A program made the position numbers and the translations under genes. From IMG/VR virus record IMGVR_UViG_3300028888_000123: a stretch of DNA of 64,000 nt, one strand, 5' to 3'. Shown here piece after piece: positions 891 through 62,244 of the stretch. Under the pieces are notes generated by a model. The model saw only the letters and a program-made list of their open reading frames with translations, had not been told where the DNA came from and did no database searches. The number at the start of each line of letters is the position of its first letter. Position 1 is the first letter of the stretch. The DNA comes from a virus.

Positions 891-893
891 AAT

Positions 894-6616: not shown

Positions 6617-6644
6617 TCAGATTTATCTATTAAACTTTTAAGTT

Positions 6645-6755
6645 ATGGACGACGATACAATTTGATGTATATGATGTATAGGTTGCTTATGGCTTCTCTG
6701 AATTATATCAGGAAATACAGCAATGATATTAGTTTTACTTGCTATTATATTATAA
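6645..6755 (+). CDS. Tiny Cys/Gly-rich membrane peptide (36 aa).
   Basis: Triple CIG repeat read through TGA; the stop overlaps the next start (TAATG). Confidence 0.3.
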
Positions 6756-7102: not shown

Positions 7103-7132
7103 TCAGGCTTTTATATCGTTACTTAAATGAAA

Positions 7133-15723: not shown

Positions 15724-15732
15724 AAAAAGAAA

Positions 15733-16293
15733 ATGCAAGAGAACCCTTATGAAAAGGCATTAAACTTATATAAGGAGAACCTCGACGAGTGACGTATATT
15801 CCTTTACGAGAATATGAAAATACTTATGAGGAAAAATCCTCTCCTTCGCCATAAGAATTATACCTTTACAAAAGACGACATCCTTTCAGAGGCGTTCCTT
15901 ATCTGAGATGAAATCCTTTTGAGAAAGGATATACCAGACGAAAAGAAAATCTCTAAACTATGGTATCTATTCAATAGATGAGGCTGAGCCCTATATAATA
16001 AATTAAATCAATATGGAGCTGAAAGCTATACTATAGATGATATTAGAGATAGTGATAGCCGAAGTTATGATATGGATGTCGATATGTTACAGTATGTATT
16101 AGTAGTAAATAATATAATTTCTCCATTGGAGGCAAAGGTACTTCAATATGTATGAGAATGAAGAGGGAAATATGAAATCGCAAGACTTATGAAAACTACA
16201 TACTATAATGTGAGAGATATTGTGGATACAATCTGATTAAAGATAAAAAGGTTTTTAGAAGAAAACGATTTAGAAGATGCAACTAACAGCTAA
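15733..16293 (+). CDS. Sigma-factor-like transcription regulator (186 aa).
   Basis: C-terminal helix-turn-helix KYEIARLMKTTYYNVRDIVDTIGLKIKRFLEE resembles sigma-70 region 4; the size suits a phage or ECF sigma factor. Confidence 0.4.
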
Positions 16294-16411
16294 TGCAGAG
16301 CAAAAAGTTATTTCTCAGTATATAACGGTGTATCAATCTATAATTTCTTTCTCTGTAGAAAAGTTATGATTAGAAGTTATATTAAAATATAACAAATCAG
16401 ACACCGATAAT

Positions 16412-16852
16412 ATGCTAGACGACTGTAATGCTCATTTAATAGAGGTGTGCGAAGACTACCTAAAAGAGCATAAACTTAATTTAGATAAGTTTCAGCTCGC
16501 AACGATAGTGGCTCAGTTATGGAGCCAGACAATCTCTGAACTAGACGAACCATTCCGTGTAACAATTAAGGAGTCAAAGCATCTAATTCAAGATTACCTA
16601 GAAAAGAATAAATCCAAGAGGGAGACCCTAGAAAGAATTAAGAAAGAGAATGAAAGTCTTGATAAAGAGGTGGCCCTTAGGAAAAAGGAGCAACAGGAGA
16701 AAAAAGTCATTCTTAGACCAGAACCCGAAATGCCGAGCGAAAATTTGGAAACCGGGGGCCTGGGGACCGAACCCCTCCCCTCTAAGCCTAAGAAACCTAG
16801 AGCTAGATGAACCGACGCTCTTGCAGTTGACAACTTTAGATTACCAATTTAA
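16412..16852 (+). CDS. Hypothetical protein with a GC-rich Gly/Pro/Lys tail (146 aa).
   Basis: ORF track 16412..16810 extended through TGA to TAA 16850. Confidence 0.4.
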
Positions 16853-17304
16853 TGGGGATGCAGAAACTTGATTTTATTAGACGTGCTCCTTGAATTACTG
16901 ATTTCAATATGCTCGTAGAAAAAATAAATGAAATCATAATCAAGCTGGATACTAAAATAGAAATAGAAGATGTGTCTATCGATAGACAAATAAAGGACTT
17001 TACCTTCTTCAAATGAGAAGAAACTAAACTACCATACCACCAAGAATTCACCATTACCTCTAATGAAGAAGCTACGAAAGTCTTTGAAATGTATAACCTT
17101 ACCTACAAAGAAATAAAGCAAATAAATGATATTATCATTAAATGAAACATTGTTGCTTTAACTATAGATGTAGTTGAGGAAGTGACAGAGAAAGATAAGA
17201 AACAAGAAACTTTCTTTGGCTATGTAAAAACTGTAGACTTAGATGCTCCAGTAAAAGAGAAACCAAAAAAGAAAAGAGCAAAGAAGAAAAACTCTTGGAA
17301 ATAA
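16852..17304 (+). CDS. Hypothetical protein with a lysine-rich C-terminus (150 aa).
   Basis: Start overlaps the preceding stop; open frame. Confidence 0.4.
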
Positions 17305-26316: not shown

Positions 26317-26372
26317 CCTCTATAGGAATGCGGGGGACATTTCTATAGAGGCTATAAGAAGACTAAGTCTTC
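26317..26372 (-). terminator. Two adjacent hairpins (CCTCTATAG...CTATAGAGG 9-bp stem; GAAGACT-A-AGTCTTC).
   Basis: Inverted repeats read directly; they lie between the late promoter-like element and the next ATG, so they could be a leader structure rather than a terminator. Confidence 0.4.
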
Positions 26373-26420
26373 CTATATTTAGATTATATTTTTTTAAGGT
26401 TTTGTTATAACTTTTACGAG
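26372..26420 (-). promoter_or_regulatory. Late promoter-like element, copy 3.
   Basis: CCTATATTTAGATTATATTTTTTTAAGGTTTTGTTATAACTTTTACGAG aligns over about 45 of 50 nt with 47445-47493 and 62196-62244. Read on the minus strand it gives a -10-like TATAAT followed by CTAAATATAGG. Confidence 0.55.
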
Positions 26421-28273: not shown

Positions 28274-28299
28274 AATATATAAATTAAGGAATAAATTTT

Positions 28300-28366
28300 C
28301 TTGGATGGGTAATTGTCCCACCCAAGAAATTAATGTGTCTTATTTTCATTTTGGTAACGGTACTAC
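28300..28366 (-). promoter_or_regulatory. Conserved stem-loop element (copy a).
   Basis: CTTGGATGGGTAATTGTCCCACCCAAG hairpin plus AAATTAATGTGTCTTATTTTCATTTTGGTAACGGTACTA. About 60 of 67 nt identical to 49971-50037. Confidence 0.55.
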
Positions 28367-28384
28367 CTAGGTTTTCTATTTATT

Positions 28385-28600
28385 TTATTGGGTAATTTTT
28401 TGTAAAGTTTCTTCATATGAAATATGTTTCCCATTCCAAATAATTATTGGTAGCATAGTTTCTCCTTCAATATCTTCTGGGTTAGCTTCATTAATGTTTA
28501 CTTCCTCAAATGTAAGTCCATTATTTTCAGCATAACTCTTTAATAAAGGAGCTATCATATGGCAACGGGAACAGAAGTCCCCCGAAATAAGTCTAATCAT
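28385..28600 (-). CDS. Glutaredoxin/NrdH-like thioredoxin-fold protein (71 aa).
   Basis: ORF track entry; CSRC (CxxC) motif near the N-terminus; size typical of the family. Confidence 0.5.
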   Translation of the reverse strand: MIRLISGDFCSRCHMIAPLLKSYAENNGLTFEEVNINEANPEDIEGETMLPIIIWNGKHISYEETLQKITQ

Positions 28601-29088
28601 TTTTAGTTCAAAATTTTCTGATAAAATCTGAATTGTCTATTTTTGACTGTTCAAAGACAGTTCTCCCGTAAAATTCGCTCTTCTTACCTTCGTTATATCA
28701 ACTCACTGGTCTAATGTATCACCAATATGTTACCGATAAAGCATTTAACTTTATCTTCTATATGTTACCATATAGTTCGGACTATATCTTCAAATAACTT
28801 TCGTTAAGTGTTGGGCACTCGTGTTGCTTTCATTACTGGTCTAGTAGTATAGCATTAGTCTCTGCACGTTCTCCCTATCCCTAAGGAGCTTCGCTCAGTA
28901 TTGTCCTTATAGGAGTTCCACTGAATTCACCCAATGTTTAAAGAGAGACATAATACTTAGTCTATCACTCTCGTATACACTTCACAAGGCACTCTTTTAT
29001 AAATCTTTCAATCACTTCACATAACTTCAACTGTCTCAATGGTTTTTGGCATAATGGTAATTATAGTAAAATATAAAAAACATATAAT
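28601..29088. ncRNA. 480-nt non-coding island: candidate structured RNA or replication origin with iteron-like repeats.
   Basis: Stops in all six frames even with TGA as Gly. Internal repeats TATGTTACC(G/A)ATA x2 and CTGGTCTA(A/G)T x2. Everything around it is densely coding. Confidence 0.35.
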
Positions 29089-29111
29089 CCCCTAAGGCAA
29101 AGCCCTAGGGG
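29089..29111. terminator. Hairpin CCCCTAAGG-CAAAG-CCCTAGGGG.
   Basis: 9-bp imperfect GC-rich stem; similar to the CCCTAG hairpin at 38551. Confidence 0.45.
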
Positions 29112-29112
29112 A

Positions 29113-29253
29113 AATGAATTAAAGATAATTTAATATTGCCACTAAAGCTATAATGCTTATAGCAACAATCACTCTAAATAGAAATAAATCTATCTTAATG
29201 ATTCCTATCACAAATAGGATTAAGAATATAAGAAGGAGAAATAATTTTAGCAT
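29113..29253 (-). CDS. Small hydrophobic membrane protein (about 46 aa).
   Basis: MLKLFLLLIFLILFVIGIIKIDLFLFRVIVAISIIALVAILNYL. Confidence 0.3.
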
Positions 29254-29286
29254 ATTGGATTAAAGGAAAGGATAAAAGGCTGATAT

Positions 29287-30432
29287 TATATATAAGCTAA
29301 GCGCGCCCCGAAAGTCCAATACGTACTCGTAGCAGAATAATACACAAACAAAAAGAAAGCACCAGCACTCGAAGCACTTCTCTCATCACCACCAGCAAGC
29401 GCCACAGCAGAAGCATCCACATAACCGAGGTCACAGTAGTAAGTTGTATAATTATCTCAAGAGTAAGCTGATGGGAAGAACATACCTTTATCGTTTCAAA
29501 CTATTGATGTGATATTTCAATCTATTGAAGTAGCACTTCATAAACTCTCCCATCAATAACTTGTATTTCATAGTTCTTTTAATTTTGAAGGGTTGTTTGT
29601 CATATTCACATAATTTCAATATATTCAATCTACCCATTCGGAGATGTTTCACCACCAGTCTTCAAGTCAGAACAATCTAACTCTTCAAGTAGATGAAGTA
29701 TTAGTAGCTCAAGTTGCTAAGTTTCAGCTTATTCAAGTTACTGTAGTTCATAATACTTGCACAGCACTTCAATTAGTGTAACCTTGTCCAATCACAGACT
29801 GACTATTAGGATTACCATATTTCATCATATATAACGCATTTACATAGTTTCTTATAGGTAATGTAATTAGTGAATAATGTGATGAACTTCAGTATCAAGT
29901 TATAACATCTGTATTTCTAAAGTCTGTAATAGAACGGTCTACTGTCGGATTGGCATTAGTTGCCCAACTTCTTAATTTACTAGAATTAGATGTTCATTTA
30001 AAGGCTCATACATACATTTGATTTTGGATACTTCCATCTCTATTAAATGCATAATATGTATATCCAGGTTTATTAGGGTCTGCTGTGATGCTTAATGTAA
30101 CTTGGCTTCCACTCTTAGACATTTTAATTCATCTTCTAGGGAATTTTATCATCACATTATTAGCCCCAGTAAGAGTTCATAGTTGAGATAGGTTTAATAC
30201 TCAAGGAGTAGTCTGTTTTACCTCTGCTGTTTCGTTTCAATTTGCATCTAATAACACTGCTGAATATCAAAAAAATTCATCAAAAGCTGTATCTCAAGCA
30301 GTTAGTCAAGCTGCATCATCTGAATAAGTCCATCCACTAGACATATTGCTTTTCTCTGTTCGTGAGATAGTGAATGTTCTATAAGTAGGTCGCACTTTAT
30401 TCTCTCATAGATAAACTGCTTTGATTTCTTTT
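29287..30432 (-). CDS. Tail-fibre/receptor-binding-like protein (about 381 aa) with a GC-rich 3' end.
   Basis: Ser/Thr/Gly/Asn-rich; the C-terminus YYCDLGYVDASAVALAGG...YYSATSTYWTFGARLAYI is encoded by an unusually GC-rich stretch (29290-29450). Confidence 0.4.
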
Positions 30433-30474
30433 TGTACTAACATTTATTTAATAAATTATATAAATCTAAATTAA

Positions 30475-31226
30475 TTTAATTTTGTCCATCACTCTCGTGG
30501 TTGTACGGATTCGTTCTTGAATGGTCTTAGAGAACATCAATGTCATCTATCCATATAACTTCATGGAATTATAGAAGTATCAAATGCTAATGCACGACTC
30601 TGTGTAGAATTATATGGAACAGATGTAAAATAATATCATGCCACTCAAGAATTGTATGCCGTAGCATTTGATATATCACGGTATCAAGCCAATGGAATTT
30701 TTATACACTTTATAAAGTTTGTAACTCAACTTAATCACAGTGCTGTATAAGTGTTATATAATGTATTATATTCTGTGTATGTAGGCACATGGAATCATGA
30801 TTCACAAGGTCATTGTCTAGCAGCTAATGTATCAGTAGTATTTCATCGGAGATTGTCATTCTGGCTTGTAGACCAGTCTCATCAATAACTTACCTTAATA
30901 AAAGAACTTCAAGAGTAATAGTTTCAAGGTCAGTAATTGGAAGCATTTACTTTTGTAGTAGTTGATGATATAGTTCAACTCCAAGAAAATCAGTAGTTAT
31001 TTCATCGCTGATAGAATTTACCACAATTAGACTCACTTAATGTATCCCCACTATTATACACAGTAGTGGCTCATAAGTTCTTATCAGCAATAGTTATCCA
31101 ATTAATACCATCAGATGATAAAGAAATAAGTCATAAGTCTGAATTATGATATATTCAAGCAACAGTAATAGGTTGCACTTCTACCCACATATATATTTTC
31201 TTAGGCTCTGTTTGTACTAAGGTCAT
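30475..31226 (-). CDS. FISUMP-like (Fibrobacter succinogenes major paralogous domain) stand-alone protein (about 250 aa).
   Basis: NCGKFYQRGNNYGFSW ... AGYRDISNATAYNSGVAGYYFTSVPYNS...GHGCSLRPFKNE parallels the domain signature (CxxxYQWGN...GyR...G..gYYWSS...gfSVRCv.D). Confidence 0.45.
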
Positions 31227-31256
31227 AATTGTTAAAAGAAAAAATAAATCAGAATT

Positions 31257-31968
31257 AAACTACTGTATTACTTGTGTAGTAGGTTGTGTTTATTGCTACT
31301 CAAGTAACTGTTCCCCCTGTTGATATAAACATAGATTTAACACTCTGTGTACCCTCTGTACCAGTTCATTCAGTTGGTATCCTATATGGAGTTTGATAAT
31401 CTCACGTTTGTGTTGATGATAGTTTTATATTAGAACATCATTGAAACATTCACTGATAACAACTATTTGGGAGTGTAGCCGCTGGAAGCTCAGGCAATGT
31501 ACTAAGTTGAGTACATAATCTAAACATATCCAGATAACATGAAACTGAAAGTGTAGTGGCAGGCAACTTAGGACTGCTTGTTAAATAAGCATTACCATAA
31601 AACAAGCGATAGAAACATCGAGTGGATGGTGTCTCTAATGATAGAGTGCTATTCTTACATAATAAGTAGTTTACATCTCCACTAGCACCTACCAGTCCAG
31701 TAATTACAAATCTATAAAAAGCACTACTACTTGTGCTAAATCTAGTAACAGTTTCAGATTTATTCCTCCAATATACTTTATCTCCTATGTTAGTAAGAGT
31801 TATAAGTGTACCAAAAGTATAATCAGACCAAGTTTGTCAATCTGTGCTTGTTTCTAGGCTTACTAATGCTGGACTTCAGCTTTTATTTAATGTTATAGTA
31901 GAATTAGTTTGTTCTGCTGTAAAACATAATTCTGATGGGTTATATTCTCTCATCATATAAATAGCCAT
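31257..31968 (-). CDS. Repeat protein with tandem LP-x-TTL/CY-x-x-MF-x-x-C units (about 237 aa); probably a virion or adhesin-like protein.
   Basis: LPATTLSVSCYLDMFRLCTQLSTLPELPAATLPNSCYQGMFQGCSNI. Confidence 0.35.
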
Positions 31969-31974
31969 CTCTTA

Positions 31975-32394
31975 TTAGAATACGTGATAAATAGTTGTTG
32001 CATCTTTACTAGAAAGAGCATTAAATTCTGCCTCACTTCAAGCCCATATCTTCGTTACTGTACTTGTTGTTCCTGTTGTATCGTTTTCTATTCATCATCA
32101 TCCAAATTTATACTCAGTTCAGTCAAGATAGAAACCTGTGACTGTTTCTGCTTGTGGAGTTACATCATAAAATATCCACTCTCCTCAGACACGAGCTCAA
32201 CTATTAGCGATTATTGTATTATTTGGTAATGGTGTTCATCATATTGATATAGCTAATGCAGTTACTGCTCATCAAGAGTTCCAAGATAATCACAATATAT
32301 CTCATATTGTATTACTTGTGTTAACTCAACTTACATATAAAGTGGTACTATCATTATAGTTACGTATAGTTATAATATCTCAACCTCCTGCCAT
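31975..32394 (-). CDS. Hypothetical Gly-rich protein (about 139 aa).
   Basis: Its start follows the stop of the giant fibre by 2 nt. Confidence 0.35.
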
Positions 32395-32396
32395 TT

Positions 32397-35300
32397 TTAA
32401 CTTTGTTTAATAAAATAAATTTTTCCAGCAACAGGATTACTTACTTGTGAGTATTCCGATGCTGTCATTACCGTAGCAGTAGTCACATCTCCAGTCTGTC
32501 CATTCACACTAAGTACTCCTGTGTTTGTTATTGTATTTCAATCTCATCATATCCAAGTTCATTGAGTTTCTCATCACCGGAGATTATCATTATGAACACT
32601 ACTCCAATCGTATGGGGTACTATTCCCAATTATGAATGTATCGCTTTCATAATATCAATTAGCTGTGTTTGGTCAATAATTTGAAGCATCTACTTGTGTA
32701 CTAGAAGTTGTAATACTTCAAGTCCAAGCGAATCAATAATTATTACCCCATTGATAATATTTACCACAATTAGCTTCGCTTAATGTATCTCAATTATTAT
32801 ATACTGTAGTTGCTCATAAGTTTTTATCCATAATAGTATATCCTGTCGTTCAGTCTGTAATAGAAATTAATCATTCAGTTTGATTCCAGAATATTCAAGC
32901 ACTTCATAATGTTCCATTTATTACAGCCCAAGAAGATGTAGGTAGCTCAAATGAATCCTTGAAACAACGAACGGAGAACCCGAAAACACGGAAGTGGTTA
33001 TTATCCACGAATACGCTGGACGAATCCAGGTAGATGTGACGGGCGTTAATCGTGCTGCCAGACACATAAGGAGAAGACGACCAATAGCGACCGATGGAAC
33101 CCTGGTCGTTGGGGCTAGCAGAGTTGTAACGACGGCCACCAGCGAACGGCATATGCAAATTTATTCTCCAGTCATCTCAAGAAGTAGTTAAACCTAATCA
33201 ATCCATTATAGTTTTAAGTCATTGCCATTCTGTTGTTAAAGGTACGTGAAATCCATCTGGTGCAGGTCACTGCATATCTGAATGTGTAGCTCATATAGTT
33301 ATTCATTCTCAAGCGTTATATTCTTTTCAAGCAACTACTACATCTCCATACTGTCAGTTTACACTTGTGACAGGTATGTTTGCTTCTACTCCATTCTTTA
33401 TGGTTTTAGTAATGTAATTTGTCATTATACTGTTTTGTAAATAATATAAAGGTTTCAATCTGAACTAGCTCACGATATGTTGTTATATTCAGTTTGAGTT
33501 ACTAATTTTCACGTTTCTAAATTCACTGTACTAGCACTACTCTGATTAGCTGTAAATGTTCATTTGCTAGTTCATCATTGATTTATTGTCAGAGTTCAGT
33601 TATTTACTGTTGGAATAGTTAATGTGACAGCTCAAGTCTGCCCATTTACACTACTAACAGGAGCGTGCGTTTTTATTGCTCACTTTAATACTGATGCAGA
33701 TATACTCCTTGCTGATGTAGATGTTCAAGTTGTAGCTTCACTTGCACTCATTGCTGAGTATGTTGTATTACTATCTGTAAATAGATGTAATGCTCATCAG
33801 CTTTCATATTTAGTAGTATATTGGAATTGCCTTGTATTAGCCTTAGTAAAATATGAGTGTCCTGCTAATGCAGTGGTAGTTCACATTACAGGGATATAAG
33901 CTCAATTTCAGATTTTTACTCTTACATTTCTATTTGCACTTGCCACTACCATTTCTGTATCTACTACAAATGTATAGATAGCTCATTCTCTCCATTCTAT
34001 TCCTGCGCTAGCACTAATGTCTATGTTAGTATATCCATAAGAAGTATTATAAGGTGCTACTCATTTAGTATCATCTGTACTTACTGTTACATCTGCCTCA
34101 GTAATGATAAATACATTATTAGCACTTATTACATTACTAGAGATTTTGATATTTTCTCCAGCTATTAGAGTATCTTGTTTAGTACTATCGTGATAAGCAT
34201 TTGTAATATATCAAGCATCATTATTTAAAGTAGAAACATTATCTCAAGGTTGTACTGCTGTAGCACCTGCACTTGCTCCACTTCTTATCGTAGCTAAGTC
34301 TGATATAGTATCCTGCTTTCAAGCTATAGTCGTATCCATAGCAGCAATTTTATCATAGACTGCATTTTTGGAAGGGGCTATTGTTGTTACTCAGTTCCAA
34401 GAAGAAGCATATGCTATATCTGAGATTTGACTTGGATAAGTAACATCTACCTCTGTAATTCAAGTTACCTGTCATAATGAGTTCGTTGTTATCTGTGGAA
34501 CCTTTGTTGCACTTCACTTACTTGTATAAGCTGTTTGTGTTGCTAAGGCATTTTGTTTTCAATTCCAAGTAGATTTCTCAGAAGAGGTTACAAATAAGTT
34601 TGTACTTCATTGAGTAATATTATCTGAAGTATTTGTTGTTTTATTAAAGTAATTTGTTAAGTCTACTGAAGTGTCTCATATTTTTACCCAAGTCGAATTA
34701 GCGTAAACATATTCTTCATATTTATCTGCCCCGCTTCAAGTAGGTCAAAGCAAATAAATTACATTTGTTTTTATATCAGTTGTAGGTAATGTTGCTACAA
34801 TTTCAAATCATTGAAAATTTTGTACTAAAGCATTTACTTCTGCTTGTGTATATGTCTCAGTCTTTTTATAGTAATTAGTTAGATTATTTACTGCGTTCGT
34901 GATAAATCAGCTATCATTCGTTAAGTCTGAAACCTTTGTAGGAATTGCTGAACTATCAGCTTTGCTTGCTATAGTTGTATCCATAGCAGATATCTTATCA
35001 TACATAGCATTCTTTGAAGGAGCAATACCTGTCACACCATTCCAACTTGCAGCATAAGCTTCATCACTTACAGCTCAACTTGTAGCAGCAGAGATATTAT
35101 CATCTACATATTTCTTTGTAGCAGGATGATAACTTCAAGTAGGAGTAAACTCTATTGTATTTGTTTTAGTTAATACTTCTGTTTTATCAGCTTTTCAACT
35201 TATATCTGGCTGTTGAATAGTTACCTCTGTAATTCAAGTTACCTGTCATAAACTGTTAGTTGTAATTTGTGGGACTTTAGTTGCACTTCATTTAGATGTA

Positions 35301-38300
35301 TAAGCTGTTTGTGTAGCTAAAGTATCTTGTTTTGTGCTATCGTGATATGAACTTGTAACGTATCCACTATCATTTGTTAATTCTGAAATCTTTGTAGGTA
35401 TCGCTGAGCTATCTGCTTTACCTGCAATAGTTGTATCCATAGCAGATATTTTATCATATACCGCATTCTTAGAAGGAGCATTATCTGTAACTCAGTTCCA
35501 ACTACTACCATATGCACTATCTGAAACTTGATTAGTATCTATATTTCAGCTTCAAAGTATTGAAGTAGAATTAATTGTTTTAATAGTTGTACCACTTACT
35601 AAAGCATCCTGTTTTCAGCTCCAAGTATTACGTAAACTTGTGCTATCAGACAAATCTTTAATATCAAAGTCACTTGCTACATAAGTTGTATCTGTTGCAC
35701 TAATAGTTCAATCGTTAGCTATTTGGATATTACTTCAAGCAGTTAATGCTTTTTGTTTATTATTAAATGTATTCCAATCTGTTGAAGTAAGATATCCACT
35801 AGCAGAAGATGATGCAGCTCAAAGCTTGCTCTGGATTGTAGCTTTAGTTTCATCCCCAGAGTTAGTTCCACTTGTATTACTTAACTTAGTACGTTCTGCA
35901 CTTGTTAAGAATAAATGTGTACTTCACTCCGTGATAACATCACTTGTGTCGGAGTTCTTATTAAAGTAAGGAGACAAATCTATAGATGTATCTCATATCT
36001 TAATCCAAGTATTATTTGAATAGATATATTCTTCATATTTATCTGCTCAAGTTCCAACAGGTCAAAGCAAGTAGATTACAGTAGTCTTAATATCTGTAGT
36101 AGGCAACGTAGCTACAACATCAAATCAAGAGAAATTAGCAACATAATCAGCTACTTCAGCTTTTGTATAAACTTCACTCTTAGTATAGTAATTTGTTAAA
36201 TCACTTACTGCTTTAGTAATGAAGCCAGCATCATTTGTAAGAGTTGATACATTATCTCAAGGCTGAACGGCTGTTGCTCATTTACTAGCTCAACTACGTA
36301 TAGTGGACAAGTCACTAATCGTGGCTTGTTTACCAGCTATAGTTGTATCCATAGCATTAAGCTTATCATACACAGCATTCTTTGAAGGAGCTATTCCTGT
36401 AACTCAATCCCAAGAGCTTCAATATGCAGTATCACTTACAGCTCAAGCTGTCGCCTCTTGTACTTGTGTATCTACATAGGATTTAATTACTTTATTCTGT
36501 ACCCCTTTAGTAGATGTGCTAGACATAGCTGTATCTAATGTAGGAATATCTGCACTTGTGATATAACCAGCATCATTTGTTAATTCACTAACATTATCAT
36601 TAGGTTGAATAGCTGTAGAGGCGTTACTTCTAATTGTAGCTAAATCTGAAATAGCATTCTGTTTAGCATCCCAAGAAGCTCTCTTTCCTGTAGAGTCTGC
36701 TAAGTCTTTAATATCAAAGTCTGAAGCTGTATATTTAGTATCTGTTGCACTAATCGTGTCACCTGATATTTGGATATTAGCCCCAGCTGTAAGAGTATTT
36801 TGTTTATCACCTAAAGCTGACTGTAAGTCTGTTTGGTCTGTAATATCTCATTGGATATTTCACCATTCAGCTGATGTCTGTGTATTACTTATAACTCAGT
36901 TAGTAATATCTATTCAAGTACCTGCTGTATAAGTTGTATCTGTAGCAGAGATTGTTCCATCTTGAGCAATCTGTATATTTGCTCAAGCCGTGAGAGCGTC
37001 TTGTTTATTATCTAAAGCCGACTGTAAATCTGTTTGATTACTTAAAGTTCATTCAATACTTCACCAAGTTGCTTTATTATCGTTAGCAGAGATAACATTA
37101 TTAGCAGATATACTAATACCAGGTCAAGCAGAATAGGTTGTGTCTGTTGCAGAGATAGTCTTTCAATCTGCAGCGATTTGGATATTATTTCAAGCAATTA
37201 ATTTCTCTTGCTTGTCATCACCTATATCAGATATCTCTCATTGGATAGTTGATATGTCTCATTGGATAGATGTCACATCTCATTGGAGATTCGTTATATT
37301 AGTTTCTGCTGTAGAGACACGTGTACCTAGAGAAGATATATTACCTGCATTAGTAGAAATGTCTGTTTGAGCCTGAGCTACATCTCCTTGTAAAGATGTA
37401 ATATCTGCTTTAGCTGTAGCCATATCAGACTGTAAATCTGTTACATCTTCTACTACAGAAGCAGGAGCATATTCACTTGCATTATGTGTAACTATGTCTC
37501 CATAGGTAGCAATCTCATCAGAAGCATCCTTTCAAGCTTGAGCATTACTTCTAATTGTTTCCAAATCAGAAATAGCTGGTTGCTTATCATTAAACTTATT
37601 CCAATCACTAGCTGTGAGATACCCATTCGTAGTTGAAGAAGCTGCTCAGAGTTTAGACATAATAGAAGCATTTGTCTCATCTCAAGTATTCGTTCACGAA
37701 GTCATAGATAACTTCGTTCTCTCACTCGCATTTAAAAATAAATGCGATTCTCATTCGGTAATATCATCGCTCGTTCCAGTTAGGTCATCTAAACTATCTG
37801 GGATATCTGGAATGTTGTCTAAGTCATTAAAGTCATTTGTTTTACCAACAACGGATATATCTGCATCGTTAGCTTTTAGATTTAATGCTGCTGTAACAAC
37901 TCTATTCTCTACTGGATTTGTGCTAGTAGTAGATAAACTTTCATCAATAGGAATTTGTCTATCTGTATTGAGTAACAATTCCCAAGTGGCTCAGTTGAAG
38001 AAATAGAAATCTCATACCTTTACTTCCTCAGTCTCTAAATCTGTAGAAGGAATTCATCTATATGAAGCTCATTCTGGACGATAATTTGTAGCTCATACTT
38101 TACCTACAATATAATAATCTCAGCTATGATACTCATAAGGAAGAGTTGTAGGATTGGATGTAGGCATTCAAGTAGTGGAGTCCCAATTAGAAAGGAACTT
38201 ACCTAATCCCTCAAGGTTCTTAATTCTATTATAAAGTACCCTACCTTGCTTAGCAGATAGAGCATTAGTGGATGAAATACTATCGAGATTATCTTCCACC

Positions 38301-38506
38301 TCAGGGATAGCTAGACTAACAACTCTATATTGGTCAGGCTCAACCACTTGTCAGTTTACTTTAATTCCCTGAATGGCATTTTTCTCAGCACTTGGTTCTA
38401 TGCTATCAAGCTTTTCTATCACTTCTTGTGTAAGAGAAAACTCAGTAGCCTTCTTGTCTACATAATCTCAATCAGCTAGGTATCTTATACGTGCTGCTTT
38501 TGACAT
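32397..38506 (-). CDS. Giant tail fibre (about 2035 aa) with an N-terminal anchor domain, at least five internal repeats of about 150 aa, and a C-terminal FISUMP-like domain followed by a second partial copy.
   Basis: ATG (CAT) at 38504-38506. Repeat core APSKNAVYDKISAMDTTIAGKADS recurs at about 34300, 34990, 35440 and 36350 on the + strand. GGRRYNSASPNDQGSIGRYWSSSPYVSGST...FGFSVRCFKDS (ORF track 32904..33158) sits in a GC-rich island. Stop TAA 32397-32399. Confidence 0.5.
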
Positions 38507-38550
38507 AATTATATTGTTTTTAAATTAAAAGTTTAAATGACAAAATAAAC

Positions 38551-38583
38551 CCCTAGATATATTTTTAAGAAATACATCTAGGG
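38551..38583. terminator. Hairpin CCCTAGAT-(17 nt)-ATCTAGGG.
   Basis: 8-bp stem read directly; lies between two fibre genes. Confidence 0.45.
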
Positions 38584-39752
38584 ATACTATATCATTACTA
38601 AACTACTTCCTTAGTAATTACATATGTAGTATTAGGGTCTTTAGTTTGTAGTTGATTATATGCTGTTTCAGATATTACAGTTGTAGCTTCTAACTCTACA
38701 GTAGTAGCTCAACTTTGATTTAATGTGAAGGCTCACTTATTAAATCATCATTGCTTAATTGCTACCTGTCAATCTCAAATTGCAGCGCTTGTAATAAAAC
38801 CTGCATCATTATTTAAGTCAGAAGCATTTCAGCTTGTAGCTACTGTGCTTAAACTTGAAGCATCAACCTTTCAAGCAAGAGCTGTATTTATATCAGTGAT
38901 GTCATCTTTTATATCGGCAACATCATCTTTTAAGTCAGCTACATCTTGAGAAGTGCTTCACCCACTTTGCTGTAAATCAGCTATGGCTTGTCACTGTGTA
39001 GCAACTGTACCTTCTACGGTAGTAACACGTCCAGCTAATGTATTTAAGTCAGATGTATTAGCCTTTCAAGCAATAGCACTAGCCACATCTCAAGCTGTTT
39101 GAAACCCTATATTATTAGTAAGTTCACTAATATTATCTCAAGGTTGAATAGCTGTAGCTCAAGCAGCAGCACCAGCTCTAATTGTAGCTAAATCACTTAT
39201 TGTATTTTGTTTTGTATTTAATGCTGTAGTAACTACTCTATTCTCTACTGCATTAGTAGAAGTTGTAGAGAGTTCACTATCAATAACTACAGTAACCTGA
39301 CTTTGGCTTTGTAATATCCAATGAGTTCCATCGTAAAGATACCAATCATTTATCTTTACAGTTTCTGTTTCAACAGCTGTTGAAGCCTGTCAATGGATAT
39401 ATGTAGCTCACATAGGCCTATAGTTTGTACCTTGCGATACAGCACTAACAATATAATAATCCCCAATTCTATAATCATATGGGTTGTCTAATGGGTCTGT
39501 AGTTGGAAGTCCATTTACACAGTCCCAAGTAGAAAGAAACCTTCACATACTCTTTAACTCATTTATTTGGTCTTGTAATACCTTACCCATTCTAGCAGAT
39601 AAAGCATCTGTAGAAGAAATGGATGTGGCATCATCAACCACTCCAGGGATATTATCTATTTTGACTTCTACCTCTGGAGTAAGTTTATGAATACGTTTCT
39701 GTTTCTCTGTATAGACATTATCCCCATCAAATATTAATCTTCCTTTTGGCAT
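38570..39752 (-). CDS. Tail-fibre paralog (about 394 aa) sharing the N-terminal anchor domain with the giant fibre.
   Basis: ORF track 39543..39752 gives the N-terminus. Shared motifs ISSTDALSARMGKVL, FLSTWD, GDYYIV, NYRP.G, ETE.VK with the 32397..38506 product. Confidence 0.5.
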
Positions 39753-39811
39753 TAATTAAATTTGGTTAAGGGATAAAAATTAACTTAATGGGTTAATAAC
39801 TATATATTTAT

Positions 39812-41399
39812 AACTTCAAGTTTCTTGCTGATTACTTACTACTGTAAGCTGTCATACATTAATTACTTCATTCAAGTCACCAATTATATCTTGATAGTTT
39901 GTAATAAGTACAGCACTCTCGCTAGTAATATCAGCATCAACTACAACTGAAGTATCTGAATTATTAAATACTCCATTACCTACTTTCACTACAGCAGTCG
40001 TGAAAACTTGAGGTAAATATGAGCTGTCAATCTGTCATTGTGCATTTAAAGTAGGAATTCCATTAGGTTGGTTCTTCTCAGATTGAAGAACAAATTGATT
40101 AGCCTGTGCATCAGGTCCTAATACTAAGTTACCATTAACTGTAGCATTCTCTGCAACAATACTTCCTGTAACCATTGTATCACTCTCAACTTGTCCTGTA
40201 ACATCAATTCCATTTCAAGCAGTAATGGCACCATCAACTCTAAGAGTTCACCCTATAGTAGAACTTCCTGTAGTCTCCAAGTTTTTCAAACTTGTCGACC
40301 CATTTACATTAAGGTCATCTGTAATAGTTGCATCACCACTTACATTTAGATTTCTTCCAACTGTAACATCGTTAGAGAAGATTCCATCTCAAGTAACTGT
40401 AGAGTTTCAAGTAACTGTTTCATTTCAAGCTACACTTAAGTTTCAAGCTACTGAAGTGTTTCATCCTAATGTAGAAGCTCCTGCAACTGTTAAGCTAGAA
40501 TTTAATGTAGTAGCTCAGTTTGTTGTAAGAGTTCCAGTGATAGTTTCATTACCTGCAACATTTAAGTTATTCAATGAAGCATCTCCTGAAGCAACTATAT
40601 CTCCTGCAGAGAGTTGCCCTGTAAGAGTAGTTGAACCTGTAACAGATAAGTTTCAAGAAGCATTTACATCTGTTGCACTTACTTCACTAAGTGTACTTGC
40701 ACCTACTACTGAAAGAGTTCCATTAGAAGCTATTCTTGTCTCAGCTGTTATTGTATCAGCTGTTATATCTGTTGAAGTTAAGTTAGTTATGTTTCAGTTT
40801 GTAGCTGTTATTGAAGCTGTTGTAGTTGCTCAAGTAACAGATAAATCTGAACCTGCAGTCACGTTTCAAGCTACAGATAACGTGCTATCTAGTGTTGTAG
40901 CTCCAACTACTTCTAAGTTTCATCCTACTGTAGCATCTCAAGAAGTTTGTAATGTTACTGTAGTTACAGCATTAGTATCAACTGTAGTAGCTGTTACATC
41001 ACCTGCTGTCAAAGTGGTAATGTTACCAGTAGTAGCATTAACAGTATCAGCAGTAATAGTTTGTCAAGTGAATGTTCCATCTGCGGAAATATTACCTGTA
41101 AAAGTTACATCCCCGTTAATTGTCTCTAATGTTACATTAGATAAATCTAAATTCATTCCTTCTATAACATTCTCTAATGCTGTAGGGTCAAGAGAAATTC
41201 TATAAACATTTTCTCATTCAATAGTTACAACAATAGGAGAAGTTCAAGTGACTTCGAAGTTTCTTACATCACAATCTCTTCTATTTCAAGTAGGAATTCT
41301 ATACACAGCTTGTGTAGTAGTGGAACCAGTGGTTGTATTGGCAACCCTTCAAGTTCCAAGTCTTTGTCCACCATTTTGTGGTTTTCTTTGTCTAGGCAT
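39812..41399 (-). CDS. Tail fibre with Thr/Gly/Asn beta-helix-like repeats and a QIDSSYLP motif (about 529 aa).
   Basis: Repeats of the NLSV(T/A)G type. NAQGQIDSSYLPQVF resembles the conserved tail-fibre DSSGKIP..QLP motif. The + strand ORF 40225..41205 is its antisense artefact. Confidence 0.45.
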
Positions 41400-41734
41400 T
41401 GTTGTCTTGATTTAATAAATTAAATTGTTCTGCCATCCAGATAATTAAGTTAGCAAATTCTTCTTTAGGAAGTCATTGTAACATAGGCTGAATGTCAATT
41501 TTTAGCTCTTCGATATCGTAAGCTGGCATTTCTTGTGGAAGCTCTCCCTCTGTAGGAACTTCTTCTATAGTTTCTTCTATAGCAAGTTCTCATCCTGGAG
41601 CAAACATAGCTTCGTCTTCTGGACTAAGCATAGCTTGTTCATCATACATAGGGGCCTGTGCTTGTGCCTCTGGAGACACATCAATACCTAGAGCGGCCAT
41701 CTGTTGTTGTATGGCGTCTAATTCGTTAGGCATA
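41391..41734 (-). CDS. Small acidic protein (about 113 aa), possible fibre-assembly chaperone.
   Basis: Strongly acidic; overlaps the start of the downstream fibre gene. Confidence 0.3.
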
Positions 41735-41778
41735 TGTTTTTAAACATAGGATAAAATCCAGACGTGGGCCAATAAATA

Positions 41779-42391
41779 TTAATCACAATCTGTATTAGGT
41801 TGTAATTGATATTCTCAGTCTGGTCATTTCATAAATAATGAAGCAATGAATAGTTCTGCTAGCCATCAGCCAAAGCAGATAATATCTCATTGTCATCATA
41901 TTAATTCTATTTTTATTTGTGTTGAATATTGCTGATTTTCTCCAAACTCTGTCGTAAGTGGCATAGTAGGAGCTAATTCATATATCTTGTCATTTATACA
42001 AACTCAATGACTTTCTGTAATTAATTCCTCATAACTATCACACCAAGGTTTTGATTGTCTCATATATTGTCTCAATACTTTACCATCTGGGCAATTAGGT
42101 TGGTATTGTTTTTGGCTATCTTGTAATACAGAAAGCATACATTCTATTTTCTCTTCATCTTCTTCAGATAAATCTTCATTAAGATAATAACTTGTCATAA
42201 GTCATATCCAATCATTTCAGTCTCAACTAATTGGGAATTCGTAAGTGTATCCTATTCATTTAGAATAAGAAGTTATTCTTATCTTACTCGTATCACTATA
42301 TACTCAAGGTCAAAGTGTTGTGATTAATTTATTCAGCTTTACTAACTGAAATAATAATGGATGATTGTCTAGTCAATTATTTTCATTCTCT
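41779..42391 (-). CDS. Hypothetical protein (about 204 aa).
   Basis: ORF track 42004..42198 extended through TGA in both directions. Confidence 0.35.
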
Positions 42392-47314: not shown

Positions 47315-47444
47315 TTTAGATTAAATCGCTTCCTTCGCCTACCAACTCGAAGTACTATCCCATAACTAGCTAATCCATTCAACCACCATCACCATTTTAT
47401 GCGATTTACGCATCACTTATGAAAAGGCTCCAATTATTACCTTT

Positions 47445-47493
47445 TCTATATATAGATTATAAAATTTAGGATTTTTACTATAACTTTTTAAAG
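47445..47493 (-). promoter_or_regulatory. Late promoter-like element, copy 1.
   Basis: TCTATATATAGATTATAAAATTTAGGATTTTTACTATAACTTTTTAAAG. On the minus strand it reads TTATAG-N16-TATAAT-CTATATATAGA. Confidence 0.6.
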
Positions 47494-49894: not shown

Positions 49895-49970
49895 AATTTA
49901 TTAGCATAAAAATATAAAAGAAATATTAGGTACTTTCGTTATGAAAATAATTTTAAGACACATACAATCT

Positions 49971-50037
49971 CTTGAGTGGATAATTGTTCCACCCAAGAAA
50001 TTAATATGTCTTATTTTATTTTTGATAACGGTACTAA
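49971..50037 (-). promoter_or_regulatory. Conserved stem-loop element (copy b).
   Basis: CTTGAGTGGATAATTGTTCCACCCAAG plus AAATTAATATGTCTTATTTTATTTTTGATAACGGTACTA. Confidence 0.55.
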
Positions 50038-58855: not shown

Positions 58856-58879
58856 ATAATGTATAATTGCTAAAATAAA

Positions 58880-62192: not shown

Positions 62193-62195
62193 TTT

Positions 62196-62244
62196 CCTAT
62201 ATATAGATTATAAAATTTAAGGATTTTTTTATAACTTTTTAAAA
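62196..62244 (-). promoter_or_regulatory. Late promoter-like element, copy 2.
   Basis: CCTATATATAGATTATAAAATTTAAGGATTTTTTTATAACTTTTTAAAA, nearly identical to 47445-47493. Confidence 0.6.

What the first reader, a model, noticed from the sequence alone, without database searches (positions are those of the whole stretch)
29287..41399. Arsenal of six or more tail-fibre-like genes with FISUMP-type distal domains encoded in GC-rich islands
About 12 kb is devoted to fibre-like proteins: 29287..30432, 30475..31226, 31257..31968, the 2035-aa giant fibre, 38570..39752 and 39812..41399. Two of them carry a domain matching the Fibrobacter succinogenes major paralogous domain signature (NCG..YQWGN, GYR, G.YYWSS, GFSVRC..D). 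One copy is the C-terminus of the giant fibre (32904-33170) and the other is the stand-alone protein at 30475..31226. The coding sequence of these distal domains, and the 3' end of 29287..30432 (29290-29450), is conspicuously GC-rich against an AT-rich genome. This suggests recent horizontal acquisition or selection on a conserved receptor-binding module. Multiple alternative fibres point to a broad or switchable host range.
Basis: partly seen in the sequence, partly recalled or inferred. Interest (0 to 1): 0.7.

Follow-up and report, generated by a model that had tools for sequence, protein, structure and literature searches.

The report
DGR variable regions without a DGR
The "GC-rich islands" in two tail proteins of this TGA=glycine (code 25) phage are adenine-free target sites of a diversity-generating retroelement, which rewrites receptor-binding residues, yet this phage carries no such retroelement itself.

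Summary
The window is a phage that reads TGA as glycine (code 25), so table-11 ORF calling fails. About 12 kb on the minus strand encodes eight tail or fibre-type proteins. The "2035-aa giant fibre" is really two genes of 1693 and 342 aa.

Two compositional islands are real: 32955-33149 and 29289-29423. The third claimed island, 30475-31226, is not GC-rich. The islands are better described as adenine-avoiding than as GC-rich. Coding-strand A is 17-18% against 37%. Island 33 has no TGA-Gly codons. They are the top two windows in the 64 kb for A-free synonymous codons (z=6.9 and 4.2).

In more than 200 homologs the same segments alternate invariant scaffold residues with hypervariable N/Y/S/D columns. 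I found matching template repeats with Avd and reverse transcriptase in other code-25 contigs. Every AAY codon of those templates falls on a hypervariable column (p=1.5e-7 and 9e-6). So both islands are DGR variable regions in C-type-lectin-like receptor-binding domains. One is the FISUMP/CLec2 class and one the Mtd-like CLec1 class.

The roughly 82-kb genome type of this phage has no RT and no template. The CLec1 site looks like a relic. The CLec2 site is intact, and is either a recent relic or diversified in trans. Recent import from a GC-rich donor is not supported.

The parts
29286..30443 (-). 385-aa tail protein with a C-terminal Mtd/FGE-sulfatase-like (CLec1-type) domain. It carries the motif LFGLEDWWGN..EW.
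   Evidence: Code-25 ORF. phrog_5302 'tail protein' E=5.8e-32, residues 96-385. 353 homologs. In the phage contigs L155 and L156, homologs of this protein are the target gene of a cis DGR.
29289..29423 (-). CLec1-type DGR variable region (residues 341-385, YVDAS...FGARLAYI). It is probably a decaying relic.
   Evidence: 48% GC peak. Coding-strand A is 18%. 23 of 28 informative codons are A-free against 13.0 expected, z=4.2. Family columns alternate scaffold and >3-bit Y/S/N/D columns, and Gly is GGN in about 90%. Adenine codons of the L155/L156 TR coincide with the hypervariable columns, p=8.9e-6. Relic signs: conserved W354 is replaced by E, 5 A-containing synonymous codons, no downstream hairpin or cassette.
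30471..31226 (-). 251-aa FISUMP-like protein in canonical domain order, with no VR signature. It serves as an internal control.
   Evidence: TIGR02145 15.7 bits and PF09603 15.3 bits, both sub-threshold. GC is 30-34%, A is 31%, and TGA is used at scaffold glycines. Its N-half is paralogous to 32671-32837 (78% nt identity, family D5).
31255..31968 (-). 237-aa protein of unknown function within the fibre block.
   Evidence: Code-25 ORF. No Pfam, NCBIfam or PHROG hit.
31975..32394 (-). 139-aa protein with a phage tail tip domain.
   Evidence: PF24243 Phage_tail_C 47.2 bits, cut-off 23.7.
32397..33425 (-). 342-aa receptor-binding protein. It is a FISUMP-like (CLec2-type) domain with the C-half (residues 54-157) placed before the N-half (about 190-300), an apparent circular permutation.
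   Evidence: TIGR02145 26.5 bits, matching only model positions 61-176. When the halves are rejoined in canonical order, PF09603 aligns over model 9-187 at 26.1 bits. 429 homologs, many of them tandem doublets of the same module. It is a separate gene from the 1693-aa fibre.
32955..33149 (-). CLec2-type DGR variable region (PFAGGRRY...GFSVRCFKD), intact.
   Evidence: 55% GC, GC3 0.62, no TGA, A 16.6%. 32 of 36 informative codons are A-free against 13.4 expected, z=6.9. All 19 AAY codons of the L141 TR coincide with family columns of >=3.0 bits, p=1.5e-7. Against the L141 TR, mismatches are 23/47 at A and 19/142 at non-A, p=2.6e-6.
32949..32981 (-). 3' end of the VR (GGGTTCTCCGTTCGTTGTTTCAAGGATTCATTT), a candidate IMH-like homing boundary.
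   Evidence: 32 of 33 nt are identical to the 3' end of the L141 TR, after which homology stops. No GRNA hairpin was found downstream.
33425..38506 (-). 1693-aa repetitive tail fibre.
   Evidence: Code-25 ORF with 82 TGA codons. PF22337 Phage_fiber_rpt 31.3 bits at the N-terminus. Internal repeats D1, D2, D7 and D13. Called as a 1693-aa gene in public contigs.
38598..39752 (-). 384-aa tail fibre.
   Evidence: PF22337 27.4 bits and PF24243 23.5 bits. Its N-terminus is paralogous to that of the 1693-aa fibre.
39780..41399 (-). 539-aa beta-helix-type tail or baseplate protein.
   Evidence: Bactofilin-like repeats at 27.3 bits. PHROG hits to baseplate wedge and tail fibre families.

Best explanation
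Both islands are variable regions (VRs) of diversity-generating retroelements. They sit in the ligand-binding face of C-type-lectin-like receptor-binding domains of two tail proteins.

How a DGR works (established knowledge): its reverse transcriptase copies a template repeat (TR) and randomises only the adenines, and the cDNA then replaces the VR. For this to be safe, every residue that must stay constant has to be encoded without adenine.

In an AT-rich genome that reads TGA as Gly, adenine avoidance forces GGY instead of TGA or GGA, CGT instead of AGA, and TCB, GCB and CTB instead of the A-containing synonyms. That produces a sharp, TGA-free, A-poor and therefore relatively GC-rich island.

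Shown here:
- the adenine-avoidance statistic;
- family-wide hypervariability restricted to these segments;
- coincidence of the variable columns with the adenine codons of real TRs found next to Avd and RT in other code-25 contigs.

Also shown: this phage genome type has no RT, Avd or TR.

Inferred:
- The CLec1-type VR at 29289-29423 is a relic of a cis cassette that relatives (L155, L156) still carry directly downstream of the homologous gene.
- The CLec2-type VR at 32955-33149 is intact. I put about 35% on it still being rewritten in trans by a DGR resident in the host cell (L141-like cassette or host chromosome), and about 45% on it being a recent relic.
For: Genetic code:
- TGA is a sense codon and aligns with Gly.
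- It also falls at the invariant Gly of the RT motif LPI-G-NLTSQ in L141.

Islands in the window:
- GC, GC3 and A content are extreme.
- A-free synonymous codons: 32/36 against 13.4 expected (z=6.9), and 23/28 against 13.0 (z=4.2). These are the two top windows of the 64 kb.
- Paralog control: the 251-aa protein uses A and TGA at the same scaffold sites.

Family level:
- In 141 modules the scaffold Gly is GGN in 75-93% inside the island, and TGA in 80-95% outside it. There are 22 island columns of >=2.9 bits, dominated by Y/N/S/D.
- The same pattern holds in 100 homologs of the 385-aa protein.
- The near-identical phages P0053 and P0071 have 30 of their 79 nt differences inside the 198-nt island. 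24 of the 30 are at codon positions 1-2, and the scaffold codons are identical.
- Close homologs of the 385-aa protein are 81-87% identical overall but 55-60% in the VR.

Real DGRs with the same nucleotide scaffold:
- L141 has TR, Avd, RT and a resolvase.
- L153 is a bacterial chromosome whose TR/VR pair has 23 of 27 mismatches at A.
- L155 and L156 are phage contigs with VR, Avd-sized ORF, TR and RT downstream of a homolog of the 385-aa protein.
- TR adenine codons against column entropy: all 19 AAY codons at >=3.0 bits, Mann-Whitney p=1.5e-7, rho=0.72. For the CLec1 type, p=8.9e-6.

Literature: Fib_succ_major/DUF1566 and Mtd/FGE-sulfatase are the two recognised C-lectin VR classes (PMC5758913).
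Against: - No cognate TR was found for either window VR. The nearest TRs differ at 13% (CLec2) and roughly 23% (CLec1) of non-adenine positions.
- There is no RT, Avd or TR in the window. Checks were A-tolerant scans, a YxDD search and Pfam.
- There is none in the rest of the genome type either, tiled through L019, L005, L023 and L025.
- Three assemblies of this phage carry an identical VR33, so no ongoing variation was observed in this strain.
- No GRNA hairpin follows either VR.
- The C-lectin fold is inferred from sequence only. AlphaFold models were poor because the tool forces Trp at TGA, and PDB sequence searches were empty.
- 7.8% of residues at hypervariable columns are K/Q/E/M, which NNY codons cannot encode.
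Confidence: 0.82

Rival explanations
1. Trans-diversification. The phage lineage has dispensed with its own DGR, and its intact CLec2-type VR is rewritten during infection or lysogeny by a DGR encoded by the code-25 host, or by a co-resident element such as L141.
For: - The genome type has no RT or TR.
- No RT lies within +/-10 kb of eight other phage copies of the module.
- Even so, the modules are hypervariable exactly at the TR adenine codons.
- Near-identical phages differ almost only in the VR.
- The L144/L149 phage VR keeps a nearly unmutated TR-like run, NVNANNNN-R.
- The VR33 3' end is 32/33 identical to the L141 TR end.
- The RT clade sits on bacterial chromosomes (L153, and Ca. Gracilibacteria MAG contigs of 192-379 kb).
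- Host-type giant surface proteins carry VRs with the same nucleotide scaffold (L140).
- Avd, TR and RT are known to work in trans, and IMH plus hairpin suffice to make a target (PMC5758913, PMC3240598).
Against: - No TR was found with zero non-A mismatches to any phage VR. The best is L147 at 9/142.
- The host of this phage is not identified.
- It is unknown whether L141 is cellular or phage-borne.
- No hairpin was found.
- The same VR occurs in three assemblies.
- Wu et al. argue that remote targets are not expected for phages.
Confidence: 0.3
2. Pure relics. Both VRs are fossils of cis DGR cassettes that this lineage lost. The diversity seen among relatives was made earlier, or in DGR-bearing relatives, and was spread by recombination.
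For: - Relatives L155 and L156 carry the cassette immediately downstream of the homologous 385-aa gene. The window has unrelated DNA there.
- The window's CLec1 VR has non-A substitutions at scaffold sites (W354E) and A-containing synonymous codons.
- It lacks the GC-rich inverted repeat that follows the stop codon in L155 and L156.
- VR33 is identical in three assemblies.
- VR33 has 13% non-A mismatches to the nearest TR.
Against: - VR33 is still 32/36 A-free in a genome with 22% GC3, so mutational decay has hardly begun.
- Its scaffold codons are conserved at the nucleotide level across phages that are only about 60% identical in protein.
- None of about ten phage copies of the CLec2 module has an adjacent cassette from which alleles could be imported.
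Confidence: 0.4
3. One reading: recent horizontal acquisition of the distal domain from a GC-richer organism using the standard code.
For: The composition step has sharp edges, and island 33 reads as a TGA-free table-11 ORF (32904-33158).
Against: - The same signature is present in all homologs across divergent phages.
- The depletion is specific to adenine, with T at 33-38%.
- The matching DNA (TRs and VRs) occurs only in 27-34% GC code-25 contigs.
- The segment is hypervariable, not conserved.
Confidence: 0.03
4. A cis DGR exists on this phage but was missed, either in unsampled DNA or as a very divergent RT.
For: - The bridging of the genome gap relies on relatives (L023, L025) rather than the same strain.
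- Most proteins of the phage have no Pfam hit.
Against: - A TR must match the VR at the nucleotide level. None exists in 64 kb plus 6.8 kb plus 2.6 kb of the same strain.
- There is no RVT hit and no YxDD ORF in any tiled locus.
Confidence: 0.05

Closest known systems
Bordetella phage BPP-1 DGR (Mtd target, Avd, TR, Brt). This is the CLec1 class of VRs in phage tail-fibre tips.
   Same: - The VR is at the extreme C-terminus of a tail protein.
- The scaffold is of the type AGGxW..G..AGAF...IGARL.
- Variable sites are encoded by AAY in the template.
- Relatives L155 and L156 have the canonical order: target/VR, Avd-sized ORF, TR, RT, with an inverted repeat after the VR.
   Different: - The window phage lacks Avd, TR, RT and the hairpin.
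- Its VR shows scaffold decay.
- There is no Pfam or PDB sequence match to Mtd or FGE-sulfatase.
- The genome uses code 25.
CLec2 class of DGR targets (DUF1566/DUF823/Fib_succ_major; Legionella LdtA type; Wu et al. 2018, PMC5758913).
   Same: - The VR covers the C-terminal ...G.YWSS...A......R..GFSVRC... part of a FISUMP-like domain.
- Matches to the FISUMP model are weak and mixed, as that paper describes.
- The host-type proteins L140 and L153 are surface proteins with this domain.
   Different: - In the phage proteins the domain halves are swapped, C-half before N-half, so the VR is internal to the gene rather than at its 3' end.
- The protein is a phage tail component, not a lipoprotein.
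- No cognate DGR lies in cis.
DGRs of Candidate Phyla Radiation bacteria (Paul et al. 2017, cited in PMC10221324), and DGRs with remote targets (Treponema denticola).
   Same: - The RT clade of L141 and L153 is found on Gracilibacteria-type chromosomes.
- DGRs can act on non-adjacent targets, and the components work in trans.
   Different: A target that sits on a separate replicon, a phage lacking any DGR, has not been described in the papers I read. Wu et al. explicitly expect remote targets not to occur for phage-associated DGRs.
FISUMP domain, TIGR02145 / PF09603 (Fibrobacter succinogenes major paralogous domain).
   Same: The cellular L140 domain passes both cut-offs.
   Different: Both window proteins score below the curated cut-offs. 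One of them is circularly permuted.

Membership tests
DGR target gene / variable region | A cognate template repeat that differs from the VR (almost) only at template adenines. | tested here: not met
   There is no TR in the window or in the tiled genome type. The nearest TRs elsewhere are L141 (A mismatches 23/47, non-A 19/142) and L155/L156 (A 39/59, non-A 43/136 including flanks). They are of the same lineage but not cognate.
DGR target gene / variable region | A DGR-clade reverse transcriptase, usually with Avd, in the same genome. | tested here: not met
   No YxDD ORF and no RVT_1 hit in the window or in L019, L005, L023 and L025. Such genes are present in L141, L153, L155 and L156.
DGR target gene / variable region | Variation confined to positions that are adenines in the template, with invariant positions encoded without adenine. 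| tested here: met
   A-free codon z-scores are 6.9 and 4.2. All 19 AAY codons of the L141 TR lie on columns of >=3.0 bits, p=1.5e-7. For the CLec1 type p=8.9e-6. The P0053/P0071 pair agrees.
DGR target gene / variable region | IMH at the VR 3' end plus a nearby GC-rich hairpin or cruciform (PMC3240598). | tested here: inconclusive
   The VR33 3' end is 32/33 identical to the L141 TR end, after which homology stops. No significant hairpin follows either window VR, but none follows the bona fide L153 VR either. L155 and L156 have an 8-bp inverted repeat after the VR that the window lacks.
DGR target gene / variable region | The VR lies in a C-type-lectin (or Ig) fold. | tested here: inconclusive
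   There are sequence motifs only. The AF2 models have pLDDT 46 and 59 and gave no Foldseek match. PDB sequence and profile searches were empty.
FISUMP domain (TIGR02145 / PF09603) | Score at or above the curated cut-off (41.65 and 33.9 bits) over the whole model. | tested here: not met
   342-aa protein: 26.5 and 21.1 bits, matching only the C-terminal two-thirds of the model. 251-aa protein: 15.7 and 15.3 bits. Rejoined permutant: 30.6 and 26.1 bits, with Pfam model positions 9-187 covered.
Phage tail fibre / tail proteins | Match to curated phage tail or fibre families. | tested here: met
   PF24243 at 47.2 bits (139-aa). PF22337 at 27.4 bits (384-aa) and 31.3 bits (1693-aa N-terminus). phrog_5302 at E=5.8e-32 (385-aa). 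The 251-, 237- and 342-aa proteins have no phage-family hit.
Genetic code 25 (TGA = Gly) | In-frame TGA at positions that are Gly in homologs. | tested here: met
   There are 834 in-frame TGA codons, 65% of all Gly codons. Conserved Gly columns mix GGN and TGA. Internal repeats show LTAgANIQI against LTAGANIQI. In the L141 RT, TGA sits at the invariant Gly of LPIGNLTSQ. No tRNA(UCA) was found in the window.

The most novel reading that the evidence does not exclude
A whole lineage of DGR-less code-25 phages keeps an intact, adenine-free VR in a permuted FISUMP tail protein. It has that VR rewritten in trans by the DGR of the CPR host cell, or of a co-resident mobile element such as L141. In effect the phage borrows the host's own surface-protein diversification machinery to retarget its receptor-binding protein.
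Probability: 0.3. Interest if true: 0.85.

Novelty: new variant of a known kind. Interest (0 to 1): 0.6.

Why it matters
- **A sequence-only signature for DGR targets.** In recoded, AT-rich genomes a DGR target shows up as a short island that is TGA-free, adenine-poor and readable in the standard code. This is easily mistaken for horizontal transfer.
- **First look at DGR-targeted tail proteins in phages of code-25 CPR bacteria.** The code-25 phage survey I checked (PMC10746230) does not mention DGRs.
- **Orphan variable regions.** An entire ~82-kb phage genome type carries two VRs of different classes but no RT or TR. Relatives or cellular genomes carry the machinery with the same nucleotide scaffold.
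- **A directly testable question.** Can DGR targets on one replicon (a phage) be serviced by a DGR on another (the host)? If so, host range in these phages would depend on the host's own hypermutation system.

Tried and rejected
- **Table-11 ORF calling** is useless here because TGA is a sense codon.
- **TR search in the window.** I used the repeat finder, relaxed blastn and an adenine-tolerant sliding comparison. Only chance A-rich matches appeared.
- **Other GC peaks as TR candidates** (16401-16920, 41461-41800, 3081-3460). They show no similarity to the islands.
- **A fully degenerate {b,A} template pattern** matched poly(A) runs. It is an artefact, and loci L026-L139 are meaningless.
- **A window-specific template pattern on JGI metagenomes** found nothing, not even the VR known to be in L002. 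The collection does not cover that record, so this negative is uninformative.
- **IMG/VR scans** for the island, the CLec2 scaffold and the TR signature gave zero hits.
- **Neighbourhoods of homologs** L009-L018 contain no RT or TR. The apparent pair in L009 and the 48-nt pair in L012 are paralogous modules.
- **Structure prediction.** The tool refuses TGA-to-Gly sequences. Models built from Trp-substituted database sequences were poor and Foldseek gave nothing.
- **PDB sequence and profile searches** were empty.
- **PF24243 on the C-termini of the 1693-aa and 342-aa proteins** gave no hit. Their similarity to the tip motif is by eye only.
- **Alignment of the 950 bp downstream of the 385-aa gene** to the L155/L156 cassette showed no remnant.
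- **A programmed frameshift fusing 1693 and 342 aa** was rejected, because stand-alone homologs of about 340 aa share the same N-terminus.

Full report
**1. Genetic code and gene map.**
Under table 11, the 17 kb around the finding contain only seven ORFs of at least 80 aa. Treating TGA as a sense codon raises the window's ORF coverage from 12.7 kb to 75 kb and gives ORFs of up to 2943 aa.

TGA stands for glycine.
- In the internal repeats of the long fibre, TGA alternates with GGN at the same positions.
- In family alignments, conserved Gly columns mix GGN and TGA.
- In the RT of locus L141, TGA sits at the invariant Gly of LPI-G-NLTSQ.
- TGA supplies 834 of 1289 Gly codons.

This is code 25, the code of Absconditabacteria and Gracilibacteria and of many of their phages (PMC10746230).

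On the minus strand the block holds eight genes:

| Coordinates | Protein length |
|---|---|
| 29286-30443 | 385 aa |
| 30471-31226 | 251 aa |
| 31255-31968 | 237 aa |
| 31975-32394 | 139 aa |
| 32397-33425 | 342 aa |
| 33425-38506 | 1693 aa |
| 38598-39752 | 384 aa |
| 39780-41399 | 539 aa |

These are two genes in different frames with a TAATG overlap. Public contigs call them separately, and the 342-aa protein has stand-alone homologs.

Tail or fibre identity is supported for five of the eight: the 139-, 384-, 1693-, 385- and 539-aa proteins (PF24243, PF22337, phrog_5302 and PHROG tail families).

**2. The compositional observation.**
Two islands are real.
- 32871-33280 reaches 55% GC in 150-nt windows. 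That is the highest coding value in a window averaging 32.9% (sd 4.5%).
- 29251-29520 reaches 48%.
- The stand-alone FISUMP-like gene 30471-31226 is not GC-rich (30-34%).

In island 33, GC3 is 0.62 against 0.22 +/- 0.07, the top of 2,907 windows. It has no TGA among its Gly codons.

The anomaly is specific to adenine. Coding-strand A is 16.6% and 18.3% in the islands, against 36.9% in the fibre gene, while T stays high.

I then looked only at residues that have both A-containing and A-free synonymous codons.
- Island 33 uses A-free codons 32 times out of 36 (13.4 expected, z=6.9).
- Island 29 uses them 23 times out of 28 (13.0 expected, z=4.2).

These are the two highest-scoring windows in the 64 kb. 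The paralogous 251-aa protein uses TGA and other A-containing codons at the equivalent scaffold positions. So the fold itself does not demand A-free codons.

**3. Domain assignments.**
- The 342-aa protein matches TIGR02145 (FISUMP) at 26.5 bits, below the 41.65 cut-off. Only model positions 61-176 match, at residues 54-157.
- The 251-aa protein scores 15.7 bits. Pfam gives the same picture.
- In the 342-aa family, the segment homologous to the N-terminal part of FISUMP (TIMDKNLGAT...CGKYYQWGNNYGF) follows the C-terminal part. Many homologs are tandem doublets of this permuted module.
- When the two halves are rejoined in canonical order, the Pfam model aligns over positions 9-187. It is still sub-threshold.
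- The N-half is paralogous to that of the 251-aa gene (78% nt identity).
- The 385-aa protein has no Pfam domain. It carries the LFGLEDWWGN..EW and AGG.W..G..AGAF...IGARL motifs, which from my own knowledge resemble Mtd/FGE-sulfatase-type C-lectin domains.

Structural confirmation failed. The prediction tool refuses TGA-to-Gly sequences. Models from Trp-substituted database sequences were poor (pLDDT 46 and 59) and gave no fold match. PDB sequence searches were empty.

**4. Family-level behaviour.**
The 342-aa protein has 429 homologs. P0001 is the same protein translated with code 4.

Across 141 modules:
- Conserved Gly columns are GGN in 75-93% inside the island, but TGA in 80-95% outside it.
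- The island alternates near-invariant residues (R49, G60, G63, Y65-W66-S-S, A79, R97, G100, S-V-R-C-F-K) with 22 columns of >=2.9 bits. Those columns are dominated by Y, N, S and D.

P0053 and P0071 are near-identical phage genes. 30 of their 79 nt differences fall in the 198-nt island. 24 of the 30 are at codon positions 1-2. The scaffold codons are identical, including their third positions.

The 385-aa protein has 353 homologs, and residues 339-378 show the same alternation. Close homologs are 81-87% identical overall but 55-60% in that segment.

Scaffold codons are conserved at the nucleotide level across phages whose proteins are only about 60% identical.

**5. Searching for the retroelement in this phage.**
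- No template repeat exists in the window.
- No RT exists in the window either (YxDD search; Pfam).
- I walked off both ends. L019 adds 6.8 kb on the right: terminase, then a replication module. L005 adds 2.6 kb on the left.
- The remaining gap is bridged by close relatives L023 (an 82-kb scaffold) and L025, which overlap at a ThiF-like gene.
- None of this DNA contains an RT, a TR-like sequence or a GC island.
- The +/-10 kb around other phage copies of the CLec2 module is also empty.

**6. Finding the retroelements elsewhere.**
A scaffold pattern, with scaffold codons exact and variable codons as N, hit three kinds of locus.

(a) *L140*, a contig of a code-25 MAG. It encodes a protein of at least 2,666 aa with two canonical FISUMP domains that pass the curated cut-offs. 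Their C-terminal parts are TGA-free and differ from each other only at discrete codons.

(b) *L141*, a 3-kb code-25 contig.
- The same scaffold lies in non-coding DNA, with Asn codons at every variable site: FAGNRNYSSAALNNQGSNGNYWSSSPYGSDNPNNARNLNLNSSNVNANNNNNRANGFSVRCFK.
- It is followed by an Avd-like ORF (DivGenRetAVD, E=3.5e-9), a 405-aa RT (RVT_1, with LPIGNLTSQ and YVDD motifs) and a serine recombinase.

(c) *Eleven further VR-bearing loci*, L142-L152. Most carry the permuted phage-type module. L145, L148 and L150 instead carry L140-like canonical-order FISUMP domains.

Mismatches between the L141 TR and the VRs are concentrated at TR adenines. For the window they are 23/47 at A against 19/142 at non-A (p=2.6e-6). 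The best case, L147, is 23/47 against 9/142.

The decisive test uses the per-column entropy of the 141 phage modules against the L141 TR codons.
- All 19 AAY codons lie on columns of >=3.0 bits.
- A-free codons average 1.65 bits.
- Mann-Whitney p=1.5e-7 and Spearman rho=0.72.

The L141 RT clade occurs on large contigs, some labelled Ca. Gracilibacteria. L153 is a 159-kb bacterial scaffold carrying AlaRS, DnaK, Fmt, Pth, PriA and RNase Y. Its DGR has 23 of 27 TR/VR mismatches at adenines, and its target is a FISUMP plus Flg_new surface protein.

For the second island, a scaffold pattern found two IMG/VR phage contigs, L155 and L156 (code 25, 33-34% GC).
- They carry a complete cis DGR directly downstream of a homolog of the 385-aa protein.
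- The order is VR at the 3' end, an Avd-sized ORF, a TR (CDNANVNASRLANAGGNWNNGSNAGAFHLNVNQSASNTNTNIGARLN) and a 423-aa RT.
- TR adenine codons again coincide with the family's variable columns (p=8.9e-6).

**7. State of the two window VRs.**

*VR29 (29289-29423).* The evidence points to a relic.
- Relatives have the cassette and a GC-rich inverted repeat right after the stop codon.
- The window has about 950 bp of unrelated DNA there and no hairpin.
- The conserved scaffold Trp354 is Glu, and five A-containing synonymous codons have appeared.

*VR33 (32955-33149).* This VR is intact.
- 32 of 36 informative codons are A-free.
- The scaffold is identical to the TR lineage.
- The last 33 nt are 32/33 identical to the L141 TR end, where homology stops.
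- However, no cognate TR was found; 13% of non-A positions differ from L141.
- Three assemblies of this phage carry the same VR.

**8. Interpretation.**
- *Shown:* the islands are DGR-type variable regions, and their composition is the footprint of adenine avoidance, which in code 25 includes avoiding TGA-Gly.
- *Shown:* this phage genome type lacks a DGR.
- *Inferred:* VR29 is a fossil of a lost cis cassette.
- *Inferred:* VR33 is either a recent fossil (about 45%) or is still serviced in trans by a DGR resident in the host cell (about 30-35%).

The trans option is compatible with experiments showing that Avd, TR and RT act in trans, and that IMH plus a hairpin suffice to define a target (PMC5758913, PMC3240598). 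It would nevertheless be unprecedented for a phage-borne target.

**9. Comparison with known systems.**
The two VRs correspond to the recognised CLec1 class (Mtd/FGE-sulfatase) and CLec2 class (DUF1566/DUF823/Fib_succ_major) of Wu et al. 2018.

Formal membership as a DGR target fails on two defining features for this genome: a cognate TR and an RT in the same genome. It is met on the mutational-pattern feature. I therefore file the islands as orphan DGR variable regions.

Aspects that are new relative to what I could read:
- the code-25 phage context;
- the internal VR in a permuted FISUMP module;
- the coexistence of two VR classes in a phage without any DGR.

Noticed in passing
window 1-64000: The whole window uses genetic code 25 (TGA=Gly; 834 in-frame TGA codons). 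ARAGORN finds no tRNA with anticodon UCA in the window, so TGA decoding presumably relies on the host tRNA.
   Followed up: partly
window 487-968 and 3306-3378: There is a tRNA cluster (Ser-GCT, Ile-GAT, Arg-TCT) plus two odd tRNA-like genes. ARAGORN reports them with a 4-base (gcga) and a 2-base (tt) anticodon. The surrounding region is GC-rich.
   Followed up: no
window 28291-28374 and 49962-50045; also 12271, 21413: An 84-nt element is repeated at 85% identity just upstream of two minus-strand genes (the peptidase gene and the gene after the 2943-aa ORF). Its 51-nt core (TGTCTTATTTT.ATTTTG..AACGGTACTA.CTAG) occurs four times. It could be a promoter or a regulatory leader.
   Followed up: no
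window 47442-47492, 62193-62243, 26369-26419: A 51-nt AT-rich repeat (TTTCTATATATAGATTATAAAATTT..., 88% identity between two copies) lies in intergenic positions of the structural module. It looks like a late promoter.
   Followed up: no
window 5954-7118: There are four copies of a 47-nt motif ending in AGTAATCAGACTTTTATAT, spaced 270-490 nt apart between small plus-strand genes. A fifth, weaker copy (66% identity) lies at 62217-62263.
   Followed up: no
window 28556-29285: About 730 nt downstream of the 385-aa gene has no called gene, which is unusual for this dense genome. Relatives L155 and L156 carry the Avd-TR-RT cassette at this position. No homology to that cassette remains.
   Followed up: yes
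window 15724-16852: Two plus-strand genes have unusually high GC3 (0.48-0.52) and A-free codon z-scores of 3.7-4.1. They are third and fourth after the two VRs. They show no similarity to the VRs, and the cause is unknown.
   Followed up: partly
window 50038-58869: A 2943-aa ORF lies in the structural module and has no Pfam annotation in public gene calls. Most proteins of this phage have no Pfam hit at all.
   Followed up: no
L153 13519-13710 (bacterial chromosome): The host-type DGR target carries an in-frame TAG inside its VR (..YYAYY*YFNSS..). That splits the gene call into 297- and 544-aa pieces. It may be a mutagenesis-generated stop or a minority allele captured by assembly.
   Followed up: no
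L012 (gene at position 25 of the locus), L013 (gene about 1 kb from the contig end): Two long phage contigs end at or next to the VR-bearing gene. That is what would be expected if population-level hypervariation breaks assemblies there.
   Followed up: no
L141 2509-3075: The CLec2-type DGR cassette (TR, Avd, RT) is followed by a serine recombinase. This suggests the cassette sits on an integrative mobile element or prophage rather than being a fixed chromosomal locus.
   Followed up: partly
window 34100-37600: The 1693-aa fibre gene is built from large internal duplications (300-nt, 224-nt, 154-nt and 112-nt repeats at 71-86% identity). This indicates growth by segmental duplication.
   Followed up: no
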